Positions 7,913-33,237 are shown, counted from the first letter of the stretch. The stretch: DNA of 64,000 nt from an uncultured Acidobacteriaceae bacterium (GCA_963839215.1 CAWITZ010000006.1:46482-110481), one strand, 5' to 3'. Translations and numbers: made by a program. The notes: generated by a model not told the origin, from the letters alone.

Positions 7913-8503
7913 GTGCCGGCCCAGCCAGACAGTGCATTGAAAGGCAACCTTCGCACGATCTTTCTGGATCGCGACGGGGTTGTGAACGAAAAAATGCCTG
8001 AAGGGCGCTATGTGACGAGCTGGCAGGAGTTCCGCCTGCTGCCGGGCGTGGCAGAAGCGATTGCGCGGCTGAATGGGGCGGGGCTGCGGGTGATCGTAGT
8101 CTCAAACCAGCGTGGAGTTGCGCTGGGGAAGTATGCGGCGAGCGATGTCGAGGCTATCCATGCCGAGTTGCAGAAGGTGCTTGCGGCGAGCGGTGCGCAT
8201 GTGGATGCCTTCTACTTTTGCCCCCACGACAAGCAGAGATGCAACTGCCGAAAGCCTTTGCCGGGAATGTTTGAGCAGGCGCAGCAGGCGTTTCCTGAAA
8301 TTCGCGCTGGAGAAAGCGCGATGATCGGCGACTCGCTTTCGGACATGGAATTTGGGCGCAGGCTGGGTATGGCGACGGTGTTCATCGAGGGCAATGTGGA
8401 GCGGCGGAAGCCCGGTGGGGAGACCGCGGCAGAGCTTGCCGACCAGCGATTCCCTGCCCTGCCTCAGGCAGTGGATGCAATTCTCAACAACCTCAAAGTT
8501 TAG
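7913..8503 (+). CDS. gmhB: D-glycero-D-manno-heptose-1,7-bisphosphate phosphatase (HAD-IIIA)
   Basis: [21 protein letters not shown]...[18 protein letters not shown]. Divergent from hldE. Confidence 0.9.
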
Positions 8504-10709
8504 TAAGCGCGCAGATCGCGAATGGCCCTGAGAATGGTTTCGGGCTGCGGCAGAATTGCGTCTTCGAGCAGGGGCTGATAGGCAACGAAGGTGTCCATTG
8601 AGCCGATGCGGCGGACGGGCGCGTCGAGATCGCCGAAAAGCTCGTCGGCGATGCGGGCGGCGATTTCAGCGCCGTAACCCCAGCTGAGCATGTCTTCGTG
8701 CGCGACGATTACGCGACTGGTTTTGCGGACCGAGGTCGCGATGGCTTCCCAGTCGTAGGGATTGAGCGTGCGCAGGTCGATGATCTCGACCTCAATGCCG
8801 CTTTCGCGACTGGCCTTTTCAGCCGCCTGCAGCGCGCGGGGCACAATGGCGCCATAAGTGACAAGGGTGATATGCGTGCCAGGCCGGACGATCGAGGCCT
8901 TGCCGAAAGGGAATGGTGTAGTCGGGGCCGGGATAGGGCGCGCGACCATAAGTTTCGCGATAGAGCCGCTTGTGCTCAAGGAAAAGCACGGGGTCGTCGC
9001 AGCGGATGGCAGTGCGCAACAGGCCGTTGGCGTCGAGGGCGTTCGATGGAAAGACGACGCGCAGGCCGGGGAAATGGGTGAAGATGCTTTCGCCCGATTG
9101 CGAGTGATAGATGGCGCCGCCGGTCAGGTATCCGCCGATGGGCACACGCATAACGATTGGCGCGGCCCACGTCGCCATTGGAGCGCCAGCGCATGAGCGG
9201 CAGCTCATTGCGCATCTGGTGCATGGCGGGCCAGATGTAGTCGAAGAATTGGATTTCAACGACGGGCTTCATGCCGCGCACGGCGTAACCGATGGCGCGA
9301 CCGACGATGTTGGCCTCGGCGAGCGGGGAGTTGAAGACGCGCTCGGAACCGAACTCGGTCTGCAGGCCGGCGGTGAGCTTGAAAACGCCGCCCTTGCCTT
9401 TTACCTCGGAGAGGGCGGCTGCGCGGCTGGCATCGGCAACGTCTTCGCCGTAGACGACGATGCGGGGATCGCGGCGCATCTCGTCGTGCAGGCAGAGCGT
9501 TGATGAGGTCGGCCATGGTGCGGGGCGCCGCGCCTTCTTGCCGCATCTGGAGCTTGCGGCCGGCTTCGGCTGCTCGGTAGCAAACGCAGCGCTGGTGGGG
9601 TCCAGGTCTTCGGAGTAGACGTGCCTGGGAATGCTTGCAATCTCAGGCAATGGCGCCTGCAGGGCGCGGTCGGCGGCCTCGGCAACCTCGCGATCGAGAC
9701 GCTGCTCAAGCGCGTTGATTTCCTCTGCGCTGAGGATGCCTTCACGCAGCAGACGCATCTGCATCTTGGCGATCGGATCGCGCAGGGCATCGGCTTCGCG
9801 CTCGGCAGCCGAACGATAGAGCTTGTCATCGTCGGAGAGGGAGTGGGAGTACGGCCGGATGCCGTGGCCATGGATGAAGGCAGGGCCGTTGCCCGGCGCG
9901 GCAATGTTCGGCGGCAGCCTGAAAGGCGCGCAGGCAGAGCTCGGCGATCGGTGCCGTCAATCTCCGCGAAGTGGAAGTTGGGGAAATTGGCGACGAGCCG
10001 GGAGATGTTTCCGCCGGGCGTGTTGACCTCGACGGGCACGCTGATGGCGTAGCCGTTGTCTTCGACGCAGAAGATGACGGGCAGCTTCTGATTGGAGGCG
10101 GTGTTGAGCGCCTCCCAGAATTCGCCCTGCGAAGTGGAGCCTTCGCCGAGGCAGGTGAGGACGACTTCATCGCCGTGAAATTCAACGTCGCGGAAGGCGC
10201 GGTAATCGCCCTCGCGCTTTTGCAGCGGCCTCGGGATGCCGAGCATAATAGCGGCCAGCCTCAGCGCAGCCAACTGCGTGGAGCACTTGCGTGGCGGTCG
10301 AGGACGAGGTGCTGACGATGTGCAGCGGGCGGCTGCTCCAGTGGGTAGGCATCTGGCGGCCGCCGCTGGCAGGATCGGTAGCCGCGCCGACCGCCTGCAG
10401 GAACATCTCGTCAGGCGAGACACCCAGGGCCAGGCAGAGGGCGCGATCGCGATAGTAGGGGAAGAACCAGTCGTAGCCGGGGCGCAAGTGCGAGGCCGCG
10501 CCGACCTGAAGGGCCTCATGCCCGGCGCCGGAGATCTGGAAGAAGATTTTCTGCTGCCGCTTGAGCAGGATCTCGCGGTCGTCGATGCGACGGGAGAGAA
10601 ACATGAGCCGGTAGATCTCGACCAGTTGCTGAGGAGTAAGGCTTCCAGAACCGGCATCGCCGGGTTGCTTGCGAGCAGTCATTGAAACTGCAACTCCCAT
10701 TCCAGTCAC
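8500..10709 (-). CDS. Fused E1 alpha/beta 2-oxoacid (branched-chain/pyruvate) dehydrogenase, about 7 frameshifts
   Basis: Consecutive fragments in changing frames: [34 protein letters not shown] (TPP motif), [16 protein letters not shown]...[58 protein letters not shown]. Shifts near 10220, 9950, 9890, 9540, 9495, 9170, 8905. Confidence 0.9.
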
Positions 10710-22232: not shown

Positions 22233-22964
22233 CTATTGGCGAACGCGCATTGCGGAAATTTCGCTGTGCGTGTGGCGCGCTGCGGTGCGCCGGTCGCGGA
22301 AGAGCTCGCCGTCGCCAAAGTGGACCTCGGCGGTGAATCCGGCGACGCCGAGAGTGCGCCAAAGATGGGGTAGAAAAGGCTCATCACCGAACCAGCAGAG
22401 ATCGCGCTCCCGGCTGGCGCCGGCAAACACGTAGCGCAATACTGCCGGCGTTACAGGAGCGCCGGCACGAACCGCAGGCTCAAAAAGCCACGAGTGGAAG
22501 CGGAGCACTGAGCTGCCGTCGGTGCTGGTTCCTTCCGGAAAGAAGAGAACCGGAACAGAGAGAGTGAGACGTTGCGCAATGAGGTCAGCAACTTCAGCGG
22601 CACTGGCCCGGCTGTTGCGATTGAGGAAAAGCGTTCCACCAGAACGCGCAGCCCAACCGAAGTAGGGCCATCGGCTGATCTCCTTTTTTGAGACAAAGAA
22701 GCAGGGGGTGGCAGCGGAGAGGATGAGGATGTCGAGGTAACTGAGGTGATTGGACACGATGATGCCACGATGCGGTGGTTGACCGGCAACGCGACGATAA
22801 CCGATGCCGAGACTGCGCAGAACAAGCCTGCATGAGTGATGGAGCCAGAGAGCCCGGCGCTCAAGCGTGAGCGGGCCCCGTGCACGGACCAGACCGTAGC
22901 GAAGAACGATGATCGCCAGAGCCGCACCCAGTGCGACAGTGCGCCAGGCCTTACGAAAGATCAT
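22233..22964 (-). CDS. Lysophospholipid/lyso-ornithine-lipid acyltransferase (OlsA/PlsC-like)
   Basis: VSNHLSYLD (HxxxxD), FVSKKEISRWP, FFPEGTSTDG. ATGA overlap with the upstream GNAT gene. Confidence 0.88.
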   Translation of the reverse strand: MIFRKAWRTVALGAALAIIVLRYGLVRARGPLTLERRALWLHHSCRLVLRSLGIGYRRVAGQPPHRGIIVSNHLSYLDILILSAATPCFFVSKKEISRWPYFGWAARSGGTLFLNRNSRASAAEVADLIAQRLTLSVPVLFFPEGTSTDGSSVLRFHSWLFEPAVRAGAPVTPAVLRYVFAGASRERDLCWFGDEPFLPHLWRTLGVAGFTAEVHFGDGELFRDRRTAARHTHSEISAMRVRQ

Positions 22965-23791
22965 GATGAGAGCGGGGCCAGGAAATGATTGCGCGCCGAA
23001 GCGGAGAGCATCTTGAGATCGAGCAAAGTAAGGAAATCGATGGTGCCGAAGTCTCGGTCCAAAGCTGGAGGAGCGCAGATGCGGGCGCCGATTGCCAGGT
23101 AGGTCTTGAGCAGCCGCGGTATGCGGGGCGACGGCGACGGCGAATCGCCGGCGATGTGTGACGGCCGTGCGTCACGCTCCGCTTGATCCAGCGGGCAGGC
23201 AAATGCTGCGGTTGGCTCGGTTGCAAACTCCGGCGAGACTCTGAATTGCTTCAACTGGCGATAGAGCTGCCAGCCCTCGGAAGGATCCTGTGAGTCGAGC
23301 GATGAGCAGCCCATGAGATAACGCAACCCCATGTCGTTCGCGTACTGTGCTATTCCGCGCCAGAGGAGGGTCAATACTTCAGGCGTACGATGTTCGCGGT
23401 CGATCGATGCCCGGCCCAACTCGAGGATGCCGGCACGAAGCGCTTCATAGGGAGCGAAATGGAATTCTTGCTCTGAATAGTAGCCAAGATTGCGCGCCGC
23501 AGTCTCGCCGGACTGCATGCGGTAGGTACCGACGACGCGCTGCGTGAGTTTTTCTTCGACGAGCAGATGCGCGCAAAAGAGGTCAAATTGATCGGTGTCG
23601 AGTCCGGTTTCATAGGAGCTTTCGAGGCCTTCACCCATCTCGACATTGAAGACGCGGAAACGCAGGCGGCAGGCTGCATCGCGATCTTCAACCGTCTGCG
23701 CCAGACGCAGACGGTACTTGACCACCTCGGCATGGATCGAAGGGCGTGCAGAAAGCGTCGGCAGAGACAAGGGAAAGGCCGGAGCGCGCAC
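22961..23791 (-). CDS. GNAT N-acyltransferase, OlsB-like (ornithine acyl-ACP N-acyltransferase); start uncertain
   Basis: RLRFRVFNVEMGEGL, DTDQFDLFCAHLLV, VVGTYRM, YYSEQEF, LELGRASIDREHR, YLMGCSSL, YLAIGARIC...DRDFGTIDF. The ORF extends to 23989; true start probably ~23790-23840. Confidence 0.82.
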   Translation of the reverse strand: MRAPAFPLSLPTLSARPSIHAEVVKYRLRLAQTVEDRDAACRLRFRVFNVEMGEGLESSYETGLDTDQFDLFCAHLLVEEKLTQRVVGTYRMQSGETAARNLGYYSEQEFHFAPYEALRAGILELGRASIDREHRTPEVLTLLWRGIAQYANDMGLRYLMGCSSLDSQDPSEGWQLYRQLKQFRVSPEFATEPTAAFACPLDQAERDARPSHIAGDSPSPSPRIPRLLKTYLAIGARICAPPALDRDFGTIDFLTLLDLKMLSASARNHFLAPLSS

Positions 23792-24001
23792 CGCCGATAC
23801 GGATGAAGAGGGACCGGTGGGATGAACCGGGGAAGCACCATAGCCTGTGTGTGCGATCACGGCAGCAGTATGCGCTGGAGATTGTAAGAGGACGGTGAAC
23901 CTGCTGCGAATTCGCTGCAAAAACAGAGCGCAAATTGTAACCCTGCTGCAACAAGAAGGCCCTCCAAAGTGGAGGGCCATGAGGAGCAAAGTAATTGCGG
24001 C

Positions 24002-24283
24002 TCAGCAGCAGCCGCCGGCGATTGATGGAATGACGAGGACTTCGTCGCCTTCCTGGAAGGTGTACTTCTCGTTGCCGAGGAAGCGGATGTCTTCTTCATT
24101 GACATAGAAGTTGATGAAGCGGCGGACCTGGCCGTCTTCTCCGCGAAGATGCTGACGCAGCGCCGGGAAGCGGCCTTCGATGTCAGTGACGAGTTCGGGA
24201 AGATTTGCCGCCGTGCTGGCGATTTCGCGTACGTTGTTGGTGTGCTTCTGAAATGCGTTGGGTAACAGGACTCTAACGGACAT
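24002..24283 (-). CDS. MoaD/ThiS-family ubiquitin-like sulfur carrier ending in GG-CC
   Basis: RRFINFYVNEEDIRFL...GDEVLVIPSIAGGCC stop. 11-bp overlap with the thrC-like gene. Confidence 0.9.
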   Translation of the reverse strand: MSVRVLLPNAFQKHTNNVREIASTAANLPELVTDIEGRFPALRQHLRGEDGQVRRFINFYVNEEDIRFLGNEKYTFQEGDEVLVIPSIAGGCC

Positions 24284-25550
24284 GGGACTCCCCTGCCAGG
24301 CTCAATTCACGATTGGCCGCAGTGTTTTCTTCCACGAAGGATTCAAAATCGGTGAGGCGCGGACGAATGGTCTTGCTCTCGCCGTAGACGCCGTTAAGCG
24401 CGTCGGTGGTCTTGAGGCCGTTGCCTGTGATGCAGGCCACGGTGAGCTCATCGGGGTGAATGCGGCCGTGCGCGTAGAGGCGCGCCGTGACTGCGGTGGT
24501 GACGCCGCCGGCTGTCTCAGTGAAGATGCCCTCTGTCTCGGCCAGCTCCTGGATTGCGGAAACGATCTCGACGTCGGAGACATCTTCAGCCCATCCGCCG
24601 GACTCACGAATGGCACGCGAGGCGTAAGGGCCGTCGGCAGGATTGCCGATGGCGAGCGAGCGGGCGATGGTGTTGGGCCGCTGGGGCTCAATGGTATCGG
24701 TATTGTTCTTGACAGCCTGTGCGATAGGCGAGCAGCCGGTGGCCTGCGCGCCAAAGAAGCGCACCTGCTTGTTTTCAACCAGGCCGAGTTCGATGAGCTC
24801 GTTGAAGGCTTTGCGGATCTTGGTAATGAGCGAACCGCCGGCCATGGGCACGACGACGTTGTCAGGCAGGCGCCAGCCAAGCTGCTCGGCGATTTCAAAG
24901 CCGACGGTCTTGGAGCCTTCTGCGTAGTAGGGGCGGAGGTTGACGTTGACGAAGCCCCAGTTGAAGCGGTCGGCGATCTGCGAGCAGAGACGGTTGACGT
25001 GGTCGTAGTTGCCATCGACGCGAACGAGCGTGGCTCCGTAGACCTGGGTGTTGAGAATCTTGGCGGGCTCAAGGTCGGCGGGCACGAGGATGTAGGTCTT
25101 GAGGCCGAGGCGCGCAGCATGCGCGGCCACCGCGTTGGCAAGATTGCCGGTGGAGGAGCAGCCGACGGTGTCGAAGCCGAAGGCCTGCGCGTTGGCGAGA
25201 GCAACGGCGACGACGCGGTCTTTGAAACTGAGCGTAGGCATGCAGACGGCGTCATTCTTGACGTAGAGATTGGTGGCGCCAATGCGCGCGCCGAGGCGCG
25301 GAGCCTGCAACAGCGGCGTGAAGCCGGAGGGCGTCTGCGGAACGTAGCTGTCGGCGACCGGAAGGAGAGCACGGTAGCGCCACATGTTCAGCGGTCCGGC
25401 GGCAATGGATTCACGGGTAAAGCGGGAACGGGCATACTCGAGGTCGAAACTCACTTCGAGCGGGGAGAAACATTCGTCACAGATGGAAAGCGGCTGGAGG
25501 CCATAGGCCTTGCCGCATTCCCGACATCGTAACTCGTACGCAGTCGTCAC
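24273..25550 (-). CDS. thrC: Threonine-synthase-like PLP enzyme
   Basis: CRECG...CDECF zinc ribbon, GFTPL, PTLSFKDRVV (PLP Lys), SSTGNLANA, RPYYAEGSKT, TGNGLKT. True substrate uncertain (see findings). Confidence 0.85.
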   Translation of the reverse strand: MTTAYELRCRECGKAYGLQPLSICDECFSPLEVSFDLEYARSRFTRESIAAGPLNMWRYRALLPVADSYVPQTPSGFTPLLQAPRLGARIGATNLYVKNDAVCMPTLSFKDRVVAVALANAQAFGFDTVGCSSTGNLANAVAAHAARLGLKTYILVPADLEPAKILNTQVYGATLVRVDGNYDHVNRLCSQIADRFNWGFVNVNLRPYYAEGSKTVGFEIAEQLGWRLPDNVVVPMAGGSLITKIRKAFNELIELGLVENKQVRFFGAQATGCSPIAQAVKNNTDTIEPQRPNTIARSLAIGNPADGPYASRAIRESGGWAEDVSDVEIVSAIQELAETEGIFTETAGGVTTAVTARLYAHGRIHPDELTVACITGNGLKTTDALNGVYGESKTIRPRLTDFESFVEENTAANRELSLAGESHVR

Positions 25551-25676
25551 AGGGTCCCTCGCAGTTGCACGAGTGCACTGATGCGGGCGCGTGACCGGCT
25601 CAAATGAATGAGCGAACTGAATAGACTCGATGAAAAACCTGCGAGATGCTCAGCCTGATTGCTTTGCATCCCCGAA

Positions 25677-25787
25677 TCTCATGTTCCCCGCACTTAAGCG
25701 AGCGAGAGTTGACACCATACTCCTGGTTTGCCCAGGCAGGTTGTCGTGGCGTCACAGGGCCCGTCCCTCAGCCACTCTGCATGAAAT
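25677..25787 (-). ncRNA. SAM-I (S-box) riboswitch
   Basis: Minus strand reads TTTCATGCAGAGTGGCTGAGGGACGGGCCCTGTGACGCCACGACAACCTGCC...GGTGTCAACTC...GGGGAACATGAGA. P1 UUUCAUG/CAUGAGA, AGAG joining strand, GAGGGA.GGCCC kink-turn/pseudoknot loop, P3 GACAACC/GGTGTC (compensated form of GGCAACC/GGTGCC). About 125 nt upstream of the thrC-like start. Confidence 0.85.
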
Positions 25788-25877
25788 CCAGGCTTGCCCT
25801 TTGGGGGCAAACTTGAATGATTTGTTTTTAGCACAGTGGCCGGACTGGTGCAAGGGCCATTGCAGCGAAAGGCATTA

Positions 25878-29276: not shown

Positions 29277-31987
<2,711 letters not shown>

Positions 31988-31991
<4 letters not shown>

Positions 31992-33112
31992 GCGCTGACC
32001 TCGGCTTCAGAAGCGGCCGCCGGTTCGGGTTGCCACCTGCGGGGCGGCTTGTCTTCGAGAGCTTTGGCGATGGCCGCGATGTGGTCTGGCGTATTGCCGC
32101 AGCAACCGCCGGCGATGTTGATGAGACCCGCGCCAGCGAAATCGCCGAGGAAGCGGGCCATATCCTGCGGGCCAAGATCGAAGCCGGTGGCAGCGAGAGG
32201 GTTGGGCAGACCGGCATTGGGATAGCAGGAGACGGCGACATCTGCTTTCTCAGCCAGTTCGGAAAGAAACGGGTACATGAGGTCTGGCCCGAGCGAGCAG
32301 TTGAGGCCAATCGAGAGCGGCTTGACGTGGCTGACCGCGTTCCAGAAAGCTTCGGTAGTTTGCGCGGAGATGAGGGTTTCGCCGCCGCGACCGACTGCGG
32401 CGGAAATCATGACGGGCACTTCCCTGCCGTCCTGATCGAAAACTTCGCGGATAGCGACGAGCGCGGCCTTGGCGTTGAGCGAGTCGAAGATGGTTTCGAC
32501 AAGCAGTGTATCGACGCCGCCGGCAATGAGCGCGCGTACCTGGTGGGCATAGGCGGATTTGACCTGGTCAAAGGTGACGACGCGGAAGCCTGGGTCGTCA
32601 GCGTCGGGCGAGTTGGAGAGCGAAACGGTGAGGGGCCCGATTGACCCGGCGACAAAGCGAGGACGGCCAGTGTCCGCGGTGAAGCGGTCGGCCCACTCGC
32701 GGCACTGGCGCGCCGACTGCTCGTTGATTTCCCATGCAAGATCGTTGAGAAACGGCGTCTCAAGTATCTGCTGATAAAACGCGGGATCTTTGCGGCCGCC
32801 GTGCTCGCGGGGATCGTCTACGAAGAATTCGCTCTGCGAAATGGAGGTTGCACCAAAGGTGTTGGTTTCGATGATGTCGGCGCCAGCCTCGAGAAAGCGG
32901 CGGTGAATGTCGCCGATCATTTTCGGCTGTGTGAGCGAGAAGAGATCGCCGTTGTTAAGCAGGTCCTTCTTCGCGTCTTTGAAGCGCAGGCCGCGCATGT
33001 CGGCTTCTTTCATGCCGTAGGTGCGGATGGTGGTGCCCATGGCGCCATCGATGATGGCGATGCGTTGCTCGAGGATCTTCTGAAGAGGATGCTGCTGATG
33101 CGCGTTAGCCAT
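31988..33112 (-). CDS. metH: Methionine synthase, N-terminal homocysteine-binding domain (split metH)
   Basis: [70 protein letters not shown] overlap with the C-terminal part. Confidence 0.95.
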
Positions 33113-33237
33113 TGGTATCTGTCGCCTCAACGTTGAATCGCGTTGACTGCCTCGGACCACTCTGCCCACCTTTCAGCATAGACGGAAGGCAGGCGGGCGC
33201 CCAGAAATTGCGTGGGTTGAAGGGGAAAGCCGGTGGA

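What the first reader, a model, noticed from the sequence alone, without database searches (positions are those of the whole stretch)
24002..25787. SAM-I riboswitch controlling a ThrC-like enzyme plus ubiquitin-like sulfur carrier: candidate protein-thiocarboxylate route to homocysteine
Seen: a SAM-I aptamer with compensated P1/P3 (25677-25787, minus strand) directly upstream of a ThrC-like gene (PTLSFKDRVV) that overlaps a MoaD/ThiS gene by 11 bp. Known: SAM-I riboswitches regulate Met/Cys/sulfur genes, not threonine synthesis. Thiocarboxylated carriers donate sulfur in CysO/CysM and HcyS-type pathways. I recall a Streptomyces route (MetM/MetO) in which a ThrC-like enzyme makes homocysteine from O-phosphohomoserine with a sulfur carrier. 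Inference: this 'thrC' is a gamma-replacement homocysteine synthase in an Acidobacterium-like host, feeding the split MetH 4 kb away.
Basis: partly seen in the sequence, partly recalled or inferred. Interest (0 to 1): 0.68.

Follow-up and report, generated by a model that had tools for sequence, protein, structure and literature searches.

The report
SAM-repressed MetM/MetO homocysteine operon
A soil acidobacterium carries a two-gene operon, switched off by S-adenosylmethionine through an RNA switch, that most likely makes the methionine precursor homocysteine with a small sulfur-carrier protein. The route was described in Streptomyces in 2024, so the "threonine synthase" label is probably wrong but the pathway is not new.

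Summary
A full-length SAM-I aptamer (Rfam RF00162, 76.5 bits) lies at 25676-25787(-). It precedes a ThrC-family gene (24273-25550) that overlaps a ThiS/MoaD-like gene (24002-24283, ends GG-CC) by 11 bp, and a terminator follows.

The interpretation (MetM/MetO-type homocysteine synthesis) is supported:
- The gene groups with riboswitch-linked homologues from Acidobacteria and Actinomycetota, apart from the genome's canonical thrC-thrB operon.
- In 61 related genomes the riboswitch and this gene are present or absent together.
- ThrC phosphate-pocket residues are replaced.

A metY-metX operon exists, so this is a second, accessory route, found in only 11 of 36 genomes of the genus.

JAMM/Mec, ThrB and split MetH are present. 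The only E1 (MoeZ) gene carries four indels. These are probably assembly errors, because about one in nine long genes tested here is frameshifted.

The pathway is published (Hasebe 2024; GapMind 2026). This scan has already reported the same operon on other DNA more than 200 times, including eight acidobacterial look-alikes. The S. albulus MetM sequence could not be compared directly. Verdict: a new member of a known kind, of low interest.

The parts
25676..25787 (-). SAM-I riboswitch aptamer (P1 5' strand 25787-25780, P1 3' strand 25683-25676)
   Evidence: Rfam RF00162, 76.5 bits, E 3.4e-16, full model. It is the only SAM-I hit in the genome.
25633..25673 (-). Terminator-like hairpin (25673-25643, about -14.8 kcal/mol) followed 5 nt later by UUUUU (25637-25633). 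It is a weak, degenerate intrinsic terminator.
   Evidence: In the sister family the same position holds clear GC-rich hairpins followed by U6-7.
25561..25596 (-). Switching strand. It can pair either with the 5' half of the aptamer (25779-25748, -36 kcal/mol) or with the Shine-Dalgarno/start-codon region (-16.8 kcal/mol).
   Evidence: RNAfold and duplexfold. In all 8 genus members the duplex with the aptamer is -34.6 to -39.3 kcal/mol, z -1.8 to -3.9 against shuffles. This is an inference, not a demonstration.
25545..25560 (-). Shine-Dalgarno GAGGGA (25560-25555) plus the GTG start (25550-25548). This stretch repeats the aptamer's GAGGGAC...CCCUGUGACG (25769-25750).
   Evidence: Read directly from the sequence. 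It is conserved in the genus alignment.
24273..25550 (-). metM-like gene: a ThrC-family PLP enzyme of 425 aa with an N-terminal 4-Cys zinc ribbon
24002..24283 (-). metO-like gene: a ThiS/MoaD-fold sulfur carrier of 93 aa, ending ...IPSIAGG-CC
23958..23978 (-). Intrinsic terminator closing the operon (9-bp stem, 7 GC pairs, then TTCTTGTT)
29277..33169 (-). Context only: split cobalamin-dependent methionine synthase. 31988-33169 is the Hcy-binding domain and 29277-31991 holds the pterin, B12 and activation domains. It would consume the homocysteine produced.

Best explanation
The locus is a two-gene operon, metM-metO, under a SAM-I riboswitch that acts as an OFF switch.

Inferred pathway:
- ThrB, encoded elsewhere in the genome, supplies O-phosphohomoserine.
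- MetO is made with a short tail (Cys-Cys) after its Gly-Gly end. A JAMM peptidase (Mec-like) removes the tail.
- A MoeZ-type E1-rhodanese adenylates the exposed glycine and converts it to a thiocarboxylate.
- MetM, a ThrC-fold PLP enzyme, eliminates phosphate from O-phosphohomoserine and adds the MetO thiocarboxylate sulfur at C-gamma.
- After acyl shift and release this gives homocysteine, which the nearby split MetH methylates to methionine.

When SAM is high the aptamer folds and expression falls. In this genus the control is probably mainly sequestration of the ribosome-binding site and start codon, with a weak terminator in addition. In the sister family it is a classical terminator.

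What is shown here: the RNA, the two genes, their phylogenetic placement, their co-inheritance with the riboswitch, and the presence of the helper genes. What is inferred from the published Streptomyces albulus system: the chemistry, the order of steps and the mode of switching.

The organism also has MetX-MetY, so this is a second, dispensable route to homocysteine.
For: - One search finds a full SAM-I aptamer. One search shows it is the only one in the genome.
- In 61 related genomes, 34 have exactly one SAM-I riboswitch. All 30 riboswitch loci fetched lie directly upstream of an orthologue of this gene at 58-88% identity.
- The set of genomes with the orthologue equals the set with the riboswitch, apart from G021, whose copy is frameshifted.
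- Of 20 relatives examined, 20 have metO directly after metM. The IPSIAGG end is invariant and is followed by 0-3 variable residues, often Cys. That is the pattern of a cleaved pro-tail.
- Actinomycete homologues are 50-57% identical to this gene, and 20 of 20 tested carry a SAM-I riboswitch.
- In the tree, all riboswitch-linked sequences fall in one clade (SH-aLRT 100). This clade is separate from the thrB-linked ThrC and from a third paralogue.
- The genome has thrC-thrB (TIGR00260 262 bits; TIGR00191 234 bits), so threonine synthesis is covered and O-phosphohomoserine is available.
- A JAMM/Mec gene sits next to cysM. A MoeZ-type E1 sits next to a second carrier gene.
- ThrC residues T88, S155, R160 and N188 (T. 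thermophilus numbering) are L137, N204, Y209 and G238 here. L137, N204 and Y209 are conserved (97-100%) across the riboswitch-linked clade; G238 was not among its conserved positions.
- Literature: MetM, MetO, Mec and MoeZ are listed in PMC13759103. PMC12172450 states that S. albulus metM has an upstream SAM riboswitch.
Against: - I could not compare the protein directly with S. albulus MetM. The sequence and the Hasebe paper are not held, and no Streptomyces locus was among the 80 returned.
- There is no biochemistry for any acidobacterial member.
- A cyanobacterial homologue that is 51.6% identical to MetM behaved as a threonine synthase/deaminase in vitro and did not raise methionine (PMC12172450).
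- A metY-metX operon is present, and the module was not found in 25 of 36 genomes of the genus. It is therefore not needed for prototrophy.
- The only ThiF-family gene in this assembly has four single-base indels. If these are real, MetO could not be activated.
- The expression platform in this genome has no convincing terminator, and the translational model rests on folding predictions only.
Confidence: 0.8

Rival explanations
1. The enzyme uses free sulfide rather than a protein thiocarboxylate, acting as an O-phosphohomoserine sulfhydrylase. MetO would then be dispensable or serve another role.
For: In 78 of 80 actinomycete loci no metO-like gene is detectable next to metM. The only E1 gene looks broken in this assembly.
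Against: metO follows metM in 20 of 20 acidobacterial relatives, often with overlapping or near-abutting coding regions. The GG end is invariant and has a cleavable tail. A JAMM peptidase and intact MoeZ genes are present in relatives. The E1 indels are probably assembly errors.
Confidence: 0.08
2. It is a genuine second threonine synthase whose expression is tied to SAM, echoing the SAM-threonine synthase link in plants.
For: TIGR00260 scores 292 bits, above its cut-off of 167. The closest solved structures are threonine synthases. A cyanobacterial homologue showed ThrC and deaminase activity in vitro (PMC12172450).
Against: A canonical thrC-thrB operon exists elsewhere. An OFF riboswitch would lower ThrC when SAM is high, the opposite of the plant logic. 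A sulfur carrier is translationally coupled to the gene. Phosphate-pocket residues T88, R160 and N188 are replaced. The gene forms a clade apart from thrB-linked ThrC.
Confidence: 0.05
3. The pair makes a different sulfur compound, for example cysteine from O-phosphoserine as CysM/CysO does, or a thio-cofactor precursor, rather than homocysteine.
For: ThiS-fold carriers serve many pathways. The carrier scores weakly to SAMP1/MoaD models.
Against: Control is by SAM, not by a cysteine signal. The genome has a separate cysM-mec pair and a separate CysO-like carrier next to moeZ. No MoaE or ThiG partner lies at this locus. The enzyme is of the ThrC type, not the CysM type.
Confidence: 0.04

Closest known systems
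MetM/MetO (with Mec and MoeZ) O-phosphohomoserine route to homocysteine, Streptomyces albulus (Hasebe, Adachi, Maruyama, Hamano 2024, Appl Environ Microbiol 90:e01247-24; listed in GapMind 2026, PMC13759103)
   Same: A ThrC-homologous enzyme commonly misannotated as threonine synthase; a ThiS-fold carrier; an upstream SAM riboswitch (stated for S. albulus in PMC12172450); a JAMM peptidase and an E1-rhodanese encoded elsewhere in the genome.
   Different: The host is an acidobacterium. The carrier tail is Cys-Cys. The helper genes sit with cysM and with a second carrier. In this genus the expression platform looks translational. There is no direct sequence comparison with the characterised protein and no assay.
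CysO/CysM/Mec/MoeZ cysteine synthesis of Mycobacterium tuberculosis
   Same: Protein-thiocarboxylate sulfur donor, JAMM hydrolase and MoeZ-type activator. This genome also has a cysM-mec pair and a CysO-like carrier beside moeZ.
   Different: There the PLP enzyme is a CysM-type O-phosphoserine sulfhydrylase and the product is cysteine. Here the enzyme has the ThrC fold and is controlled by SAM.
HcyS/HcyD/HcyF/MetY thiocarboxylate-dependent homocysteine synthesis of Wolinella succinogenes (Krishnamoorthy and Begley 2011, cited in PMC5764234)
   Same: A carrier with a C-terminal extension removed by a metalloprotease. The thiocarboxylate sulfur ends up in homocysteine.
   Different: There the PLP enzyme is MetY (Cys_Met_Meta_PP fold) acting on O-acetylhomoserine. 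Here it is a ThrC-fold enzyme, presumably acting on O-phosphohomoserine.
Canonical threonine synthase (ThrC; PDB 1UIM/1V7C, 6CGQ, 2ZSJ, 2D1F)
   Same: Same fold, the same PLP lysine motif (SFKDR), and 156-177 bits to solved ThrCs.
   Different: Positions T88, S155, R160 and N188 are changed to L, N, Y and G. I recall these as the phosphate-binding positions of T. thermophilus ThrC. The gene is not linked to thrB and forms a separate clade.

Membership tests
MetM/MetO pathway (Hasebe 2024) | A ThrC-homologous PLP enzyme that is distinct from the organism's threonine synthase | tested here: met
   There are three ThrC-family genes in the genome. The thrB-linked one is canonical. This gene lies in a separate SH-aLRT 100 clade.
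MetM/MetO pathway (Hasebe 2024) | A partner ThiS/MoaD-fold carrier with a C-terminal Gly-Gly, with or without a removable tail | tested here: met
   PF02597 at 40.7 bits; ends GG-CC; 20 of 20 relatives have GG plus 0-3 variable residues.
MetM/MetO pathway (Hasebe 2024) | SAM riboswitch upstream of metM (reported for S. albulus in PMC12172450) | tested here: met
   The feature is conserved in 30 of 30 acidobacterial loci and 20 of 20 actinomycete loci.
MetM/MetO pathway (Hasebe 2024) | A Mec-type JAMM hydrolase in the genome | tested here: met
   PF14464 at 78.4 bits at G000:C4:510361-510801, adjacent to cysM. That it acts on MetO is inferred.
MetM/MetO pathway (Hasebe 2024) | A MoeZ-type E1-rhodanese to thiocarboxylate the carrier | tested here: inconclusive
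   There is a single ThiF-family locus, at C4:141837-143030. It has four 1-nt indels relative to intact 392-aa orthologues. The assembly is frameshift-prone.
MetM/MetO pathway (Hasebe 2024) | Close sequence relationship to the characterised S. albulus MetM (UniProt A0A059WBP2) | not testable with these tools
   The sequence and the paper are not held. The evidence is indirect only: 50-57% identity to riboswitch-linked actinomycete homologues.
MetM/MetO pathway (Hasebe 2024) | Catalysis: O-phosphohomoserine plus MetO-COSH gives homocysteine | not testable with these tools
   This needs an enzyme assay. The substrate supply is present (thrB, TIGR00191 at 234 bits).
SAM-I riboswitch (RF00162) | Full aptamer scoring above the curated threshold | tested here: met
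   76.5 bits against 44.4, model positions 1-108 of 108.
SAM-I riboswitch (RF00162) | An expression platform that couples P1 formation to gene expression | tested here: inconclusive
   There is a weak hairpin with a U5 run, and a predicted alternative pairing of a strand with either the aptamer or the SD/start region. Clear terminators occur only in the sister family.
Threonine synthase (TIGR00260 equivalog) | HMM score above the cut-off | tested here: met
   292 bits against 167. This is why annotation pipelines call it threonine synthase.
Threonine synthase (TIGR00260 equivalog) | Conserved substrate-phosphate pocket (T88, S155, R160, N188 of T. thermophilus ThrC; the residue roles are recalled from the literature) | tested here: not met
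   The positions are L137, N204, Y209 and G238. The genome's thrB-linked ThrC and the four solved ThrCs keep the ThrC residues.
CysO/CysM (M. tuberculosis) | The carrier's partner enzyme is a CysM-type O-phosphoserine sulfhydrylase | tested here: not met
   The partner here is of the ThrC type. cysM is elsewhere, at C4:510802-511794.
HcyS/MetY (W. succinogenes) | The carrier's partner enzyme is a MetY-type (PF01053) enzyme | tested here: not met
   The PF01053 genes are at C8:36972-38219 (with metX) and C8:889065-890186, not at this locus.

The most novel reading that the evidence does not exclude
In this acidobacterial genus the SAM-I riboswitch has replaced its ancestral terminator, which the sister family keeps, with a translational platform. 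In that platform the ribosome-binding site and start codon copy the aptamer's own P2 strand (GAGGGAC...CCCUGUGACG). One intervening strand then chooses between unfolding the aptamer (ON) and masking the start site (OFF). In addition, the MetM/MetO module is an accessory, frequently lost back-up to MetX/MetY. It may be useful when free sulfide or acetyl-CoA is limiting.
Probability: 0.3. Interest if true: 0.35.

Novelty: new member of a known kind. Interest (0 to 1): 0.2.

Why it matters
The practical value is for annotation and metabolic reconstruction. NCBIfam, Pfam and the source databases all call this protein threonine synthase, so pathway tools would miss a route to homocysteine in Acidobacteria. 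The exact co-inheritance of riboswitch and gene across 61 genomes gives a cheap rule for telling MetM from ThrC. So do the diagnostic replacements STGN-LA for STGN-TS and RPxY for NPxR. Biologically it shows that the 2024 Streptomyces pathway is an optional module in a dominant soil phylum and coexists with MetX/MetY. It does not open a new question.

Tried and rejected
- The Hasebe 2024 paper is not held. GapMind 2026 has no supplements held as text.
- I tried to obtain a named Streptomyces MetM. The genome-contig scan with a Micromonosporaceae homologue returned 80 actinomycete loci but no Streptomyces. Cluster look-ups gave only "threonine synthase" names. One representative (P0291, 45% identity) turned out to follow leuS in a metagenome contig, with no carrier gene in its neighbourhood (its DNA was not scanned for a riboswitch), so it was not informative.
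- I checked whether the broken MoeZ gene means a dead pathway and rejected that as the likelier reading. Seven of 61 long orthologous genes are also frameshifted in this assembly.
- I looked for a NIL-domain partner, reported by earlier notes for other phyla. There is none in the operon or the genome.
- I looked for another riboswitch in front of metY-metX, thrC-thrB, cysM-mec, the CysO-like carrier and moeZ. There is none at E <= 0.01.
- NF006050 (PRK08197) is not a MetM model. The genome's third paralogue scores 520 bits to it, while this gene scores 297.
- The N-terminal zinc ribbon is not specific to MetM. All three paralogues have it.
- Three actinomycete rows in the tree (L100, L125, L131) were mis-extracted ORFs with very long branches and should be ignored.
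- The literature search for earlier SAM-riboswitch/thrC reports found nothing relevant.

Full report
**What is there**

A scan of the whole window against Rfam gives a single hit over threshold. It is a complete SAM-I aptamer at 25676-25787 on the minus strand (76.5 bits, gathering score 44.4, E 3.4e-16, model positions 1-108).

- 125 nt downstream, a 425-aa ORF begins with GTG at 25550. It has a GAGGGA ribosome-binding site six bases upstream.
- The ORF is a PLP enzyme of the threonine-synthase family: PF00291 at 232 bits, TIGR00260 at 292 bits, NF006050 at 297 bits (just under its cut-off of 303). It has an N-terminal CxxC...CxxC zinc ribbon.
- Its last 11 nt overlap a 93-aa ORF at 24002-24283. 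That ORF is a ThiS/MoaD-fold protein (PF02597 at 40.7 bits) ending ...IPSIAGG-CC.
- A 9-bp GC-rich hairpin followed by a T-run at 23978-23958 closes the unit.
- The next genes downstream are ornithine-lipid acyltransferases. Upstream lie GH97 and GH16 glycosidases. The operon therefore has two genes.
It occupies 31988-33169 plus 29277-31991. Unrelated genes separate it from the operon.

**Genome context**

The window is C6:46482-110481 of a 4.12-Mb, 10-contig assembly (96.9% complete). Protein neighbours name it as a Terracidiphilus-like member of the Acidobacteriota.

- This riboswitch is the only SAM-I element in the genome.
- The genome has two more ThrC-family genes. One is translationally coupled to homoserine kinase (TIGR00260 at 262 bits; TIGR00191 at 234 bits), so it is the real threonine synthase and O-phosphohomoserine is made. 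The other is a PRK08197-type paralogue of unknown role.
A metY-metX operon scores NF006096 at 745 bits and NF001209 at 367 bits. No HTS-type metA was found.
- No Rfam family matched near metY-metX or the other loci examined.

**Helper genes**

- A JAMM/Mec-type peptidase lies next to cysM.
- The only ThiF-family gene encodes a MoeZ-type E1-rhodanese. It lies next to a second carrier that is 34% identical to the first.
- In this assembly the E1 gene carries four single-base indels relative to eight intact 392-aa orthologues.
- I tested whether that is special to this gene. I mapped 61 long ORFs of a complete same-genus genome onto this assembly. Seven other genes are also split across reading frames, and one of them has four frame changes.
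- The assembly is therefore indel-prone, and the broken E1 is most likely an artefact.

**Comparative evidence**

- Among 61 related genomes, 34 have a SAM-I riboswitch, and each has exactly one. All 30 loci fetched lie directly upstream of an orthologue of this gene.
- Searching the same genomes with the protein finds the same set. The one exception is a genome whose copy is frameshifted.
- The module is present in 11 of 36 genomes of the genus and in 22 of 24 genomes of a sister family. It is therefore accessory, which fits its redundancy with MetX/MetY.
- In 20 of 20 relatives the carrier gene follows directly. It ends in an invariant IPSIAGG followed by nothing, or by C, CC, CA, CR, CE, CQA, R, RT, RA, TA, GD, W, SR or A. 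Variable residues after an invariant Gly-Gly are the signature of a tail removed before activation.
- Homologues from Micromonospora, Actinoplanes, Frankia, Blastococcus and other Actinomycetota are 50-57% identical. They carry a SAM-I riboswitch in 20 of 20 cases tested, although a carrier gene is adjacent in only 2 of 80.
- In a maximum-likelihood tree, all riboswitch-linked sequences fall in one clade with SH-aLRT 100. This clade is separate from thrB-linked ThrC, from which it is split by a branch of length 1.24 with support 100, and from the third paralogue. Three mis-extracted rows should be ignored.

**Active site**

I aligned the protein to solved threonine synthases and to the genome's own ThrC. 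The PLP lysine (K110, equivalent to K61 of T. thermophilus ThrC) and the STGN loop are kept. Four other positions differ:

| T. thermophilus ThrC | This protein |
|---|---|
| T88 | L137 |
| S155 | N204 |
| R160 | Y209 |
| N188 | G238 |

L137, N204 and Y209 are conserved (97-100%) across the riboswitch-linked clade; G238 was not among its conserved positions. From memory of the T. thermophilus structural papers, these four positions hold the substrate phosphate. ThrC retains that phosphate to help add water at C-beta. Their loss fits an enzyme that does gamma-replacement instead. The residue roles are recalled, not tested here.

**The switch**

- In the sister family the aptamer is followed by textbook terminators.
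- In this genus the corresponding hairpin is weak. Here it is 25673-25643 at -14.8 kcal/mol, with its U5 run five bases away.
- Instead, the ribosome-binding site and start codon (25560-25545) repeat the aptamer's own GAGGGAC...CCCUGUGACG.
- The strand at 25596-25561 can pair either with them (-16.8 kcal/mol) or with the 5' half of the aptamer (-36 kcal/mol).
- The aptamer pairing is strong in all eight genus members: -34.6 to -39.3 kcal/mol, z -1.8 to -3.9 against shuffles. This holds although the strand's sequence varies between them.
- I read this as probable translational control. It rests on folding predictions only.

**What is known**

- The MetM/MetO/Mec/MoeZ route from O-phosphohomoserine to homocysteine was described in Streptomyces albulus by Hasebe et al. 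in 2024. I cite it through PMC12172450 and PMC13759103.
- GapMind 2026 already includes the route and notes the misannotation as threonine synthase.
- PMC12172450 states that S. albulus metM has an upstream SAM riboswitch. It also reports that a cyanobacterial homologue behaved as a threonine synthase/deaminase in vitro. This cautions against assuming that the family has a uniform function.
- This scan has already logged 230 notes with the same reading on other genomes, including eight acidobacterial look-alikes of this very stretch.
- I checked two leads from those notes here. There is no NIL-domain partner in this genome. The frameshifted-assembly explanation applies.

**Verdict**

This is a new member of a known kind and of low interest. 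The untested points are the direct comparison with the characterised protein, the enzymology, the state of the E1 gene, and the mode of riboswitch action.

Noticed in passing
window 8503-10709 (-) = G000:C6:54984-57190: The orthologue of a 735-aa ORF of a same-genus genome is split over four frame changes here. Six other long genes elsewhere in the assembly are also frameshifted (7 of 61 tested). This points to indel errors in the assembly.
   Followed up: partly
G000:C4:141837-143030 (-), loci L019/L133: The only ThiF/MoeZ-type E1 gene of the genome has four single-base indels (C4:142692, 142169, 142120, 142107) relative to intact 392-aa orthologues. It lies next to a CysO-like carrier ending GG plus LSASLPQS.
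   Followed up: partly
G000:C4:587164-588372 (+), locus L003:1312-2520: A third ThrC-family paralogue (402 aa, NF006050 at 520 bits) lies between an ARPP-1 protein (PF20208) and a sodium:dicarboxylate symporter. Its function is unknown, and it forms its own clade with two representatives.
   Followed up: partly
L028:230-1396 (-), L039:1770-2951 (+) and other sister-family loci: In the sister family the canonical ThrC orthologue (62% identical to this genome's thrB-linked ThrC) lies next to the riboswitch-metM unit and is transcribed divergently.
   Followed up: no
window 25794-25810 (-): An inverted repeat TTGCCC-N5-GGGCAA lies just upstream of the aptamer and is conserved across the genus alignment. 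Its role (promoter element, operator or upstream terminator remnant) is unknown.
   Followed up: no
L053-L132 (Actinomycetota): 20 of 20 tested loci have a SAM-I riboswitch before the metM homologue, but only 2 of 80 have a detectable metO-like gene adjacent. In most actinomycetes sampled the carrier must be encoded elsewhere or shared.
   Followed up: partly
window 22233-23989 (-): An OlsB-like and OlsA-like acyltransferase pair (ornithine lipid synthesis) lies directly downstream of the operon terminator.
   Followed up: no
L037 (G021:C9:128800-131909): The metM orthologue of one genus member is split into three tblastn pieces (a frameshifted copy) although its riboswitch is intact.
   Followed up: no
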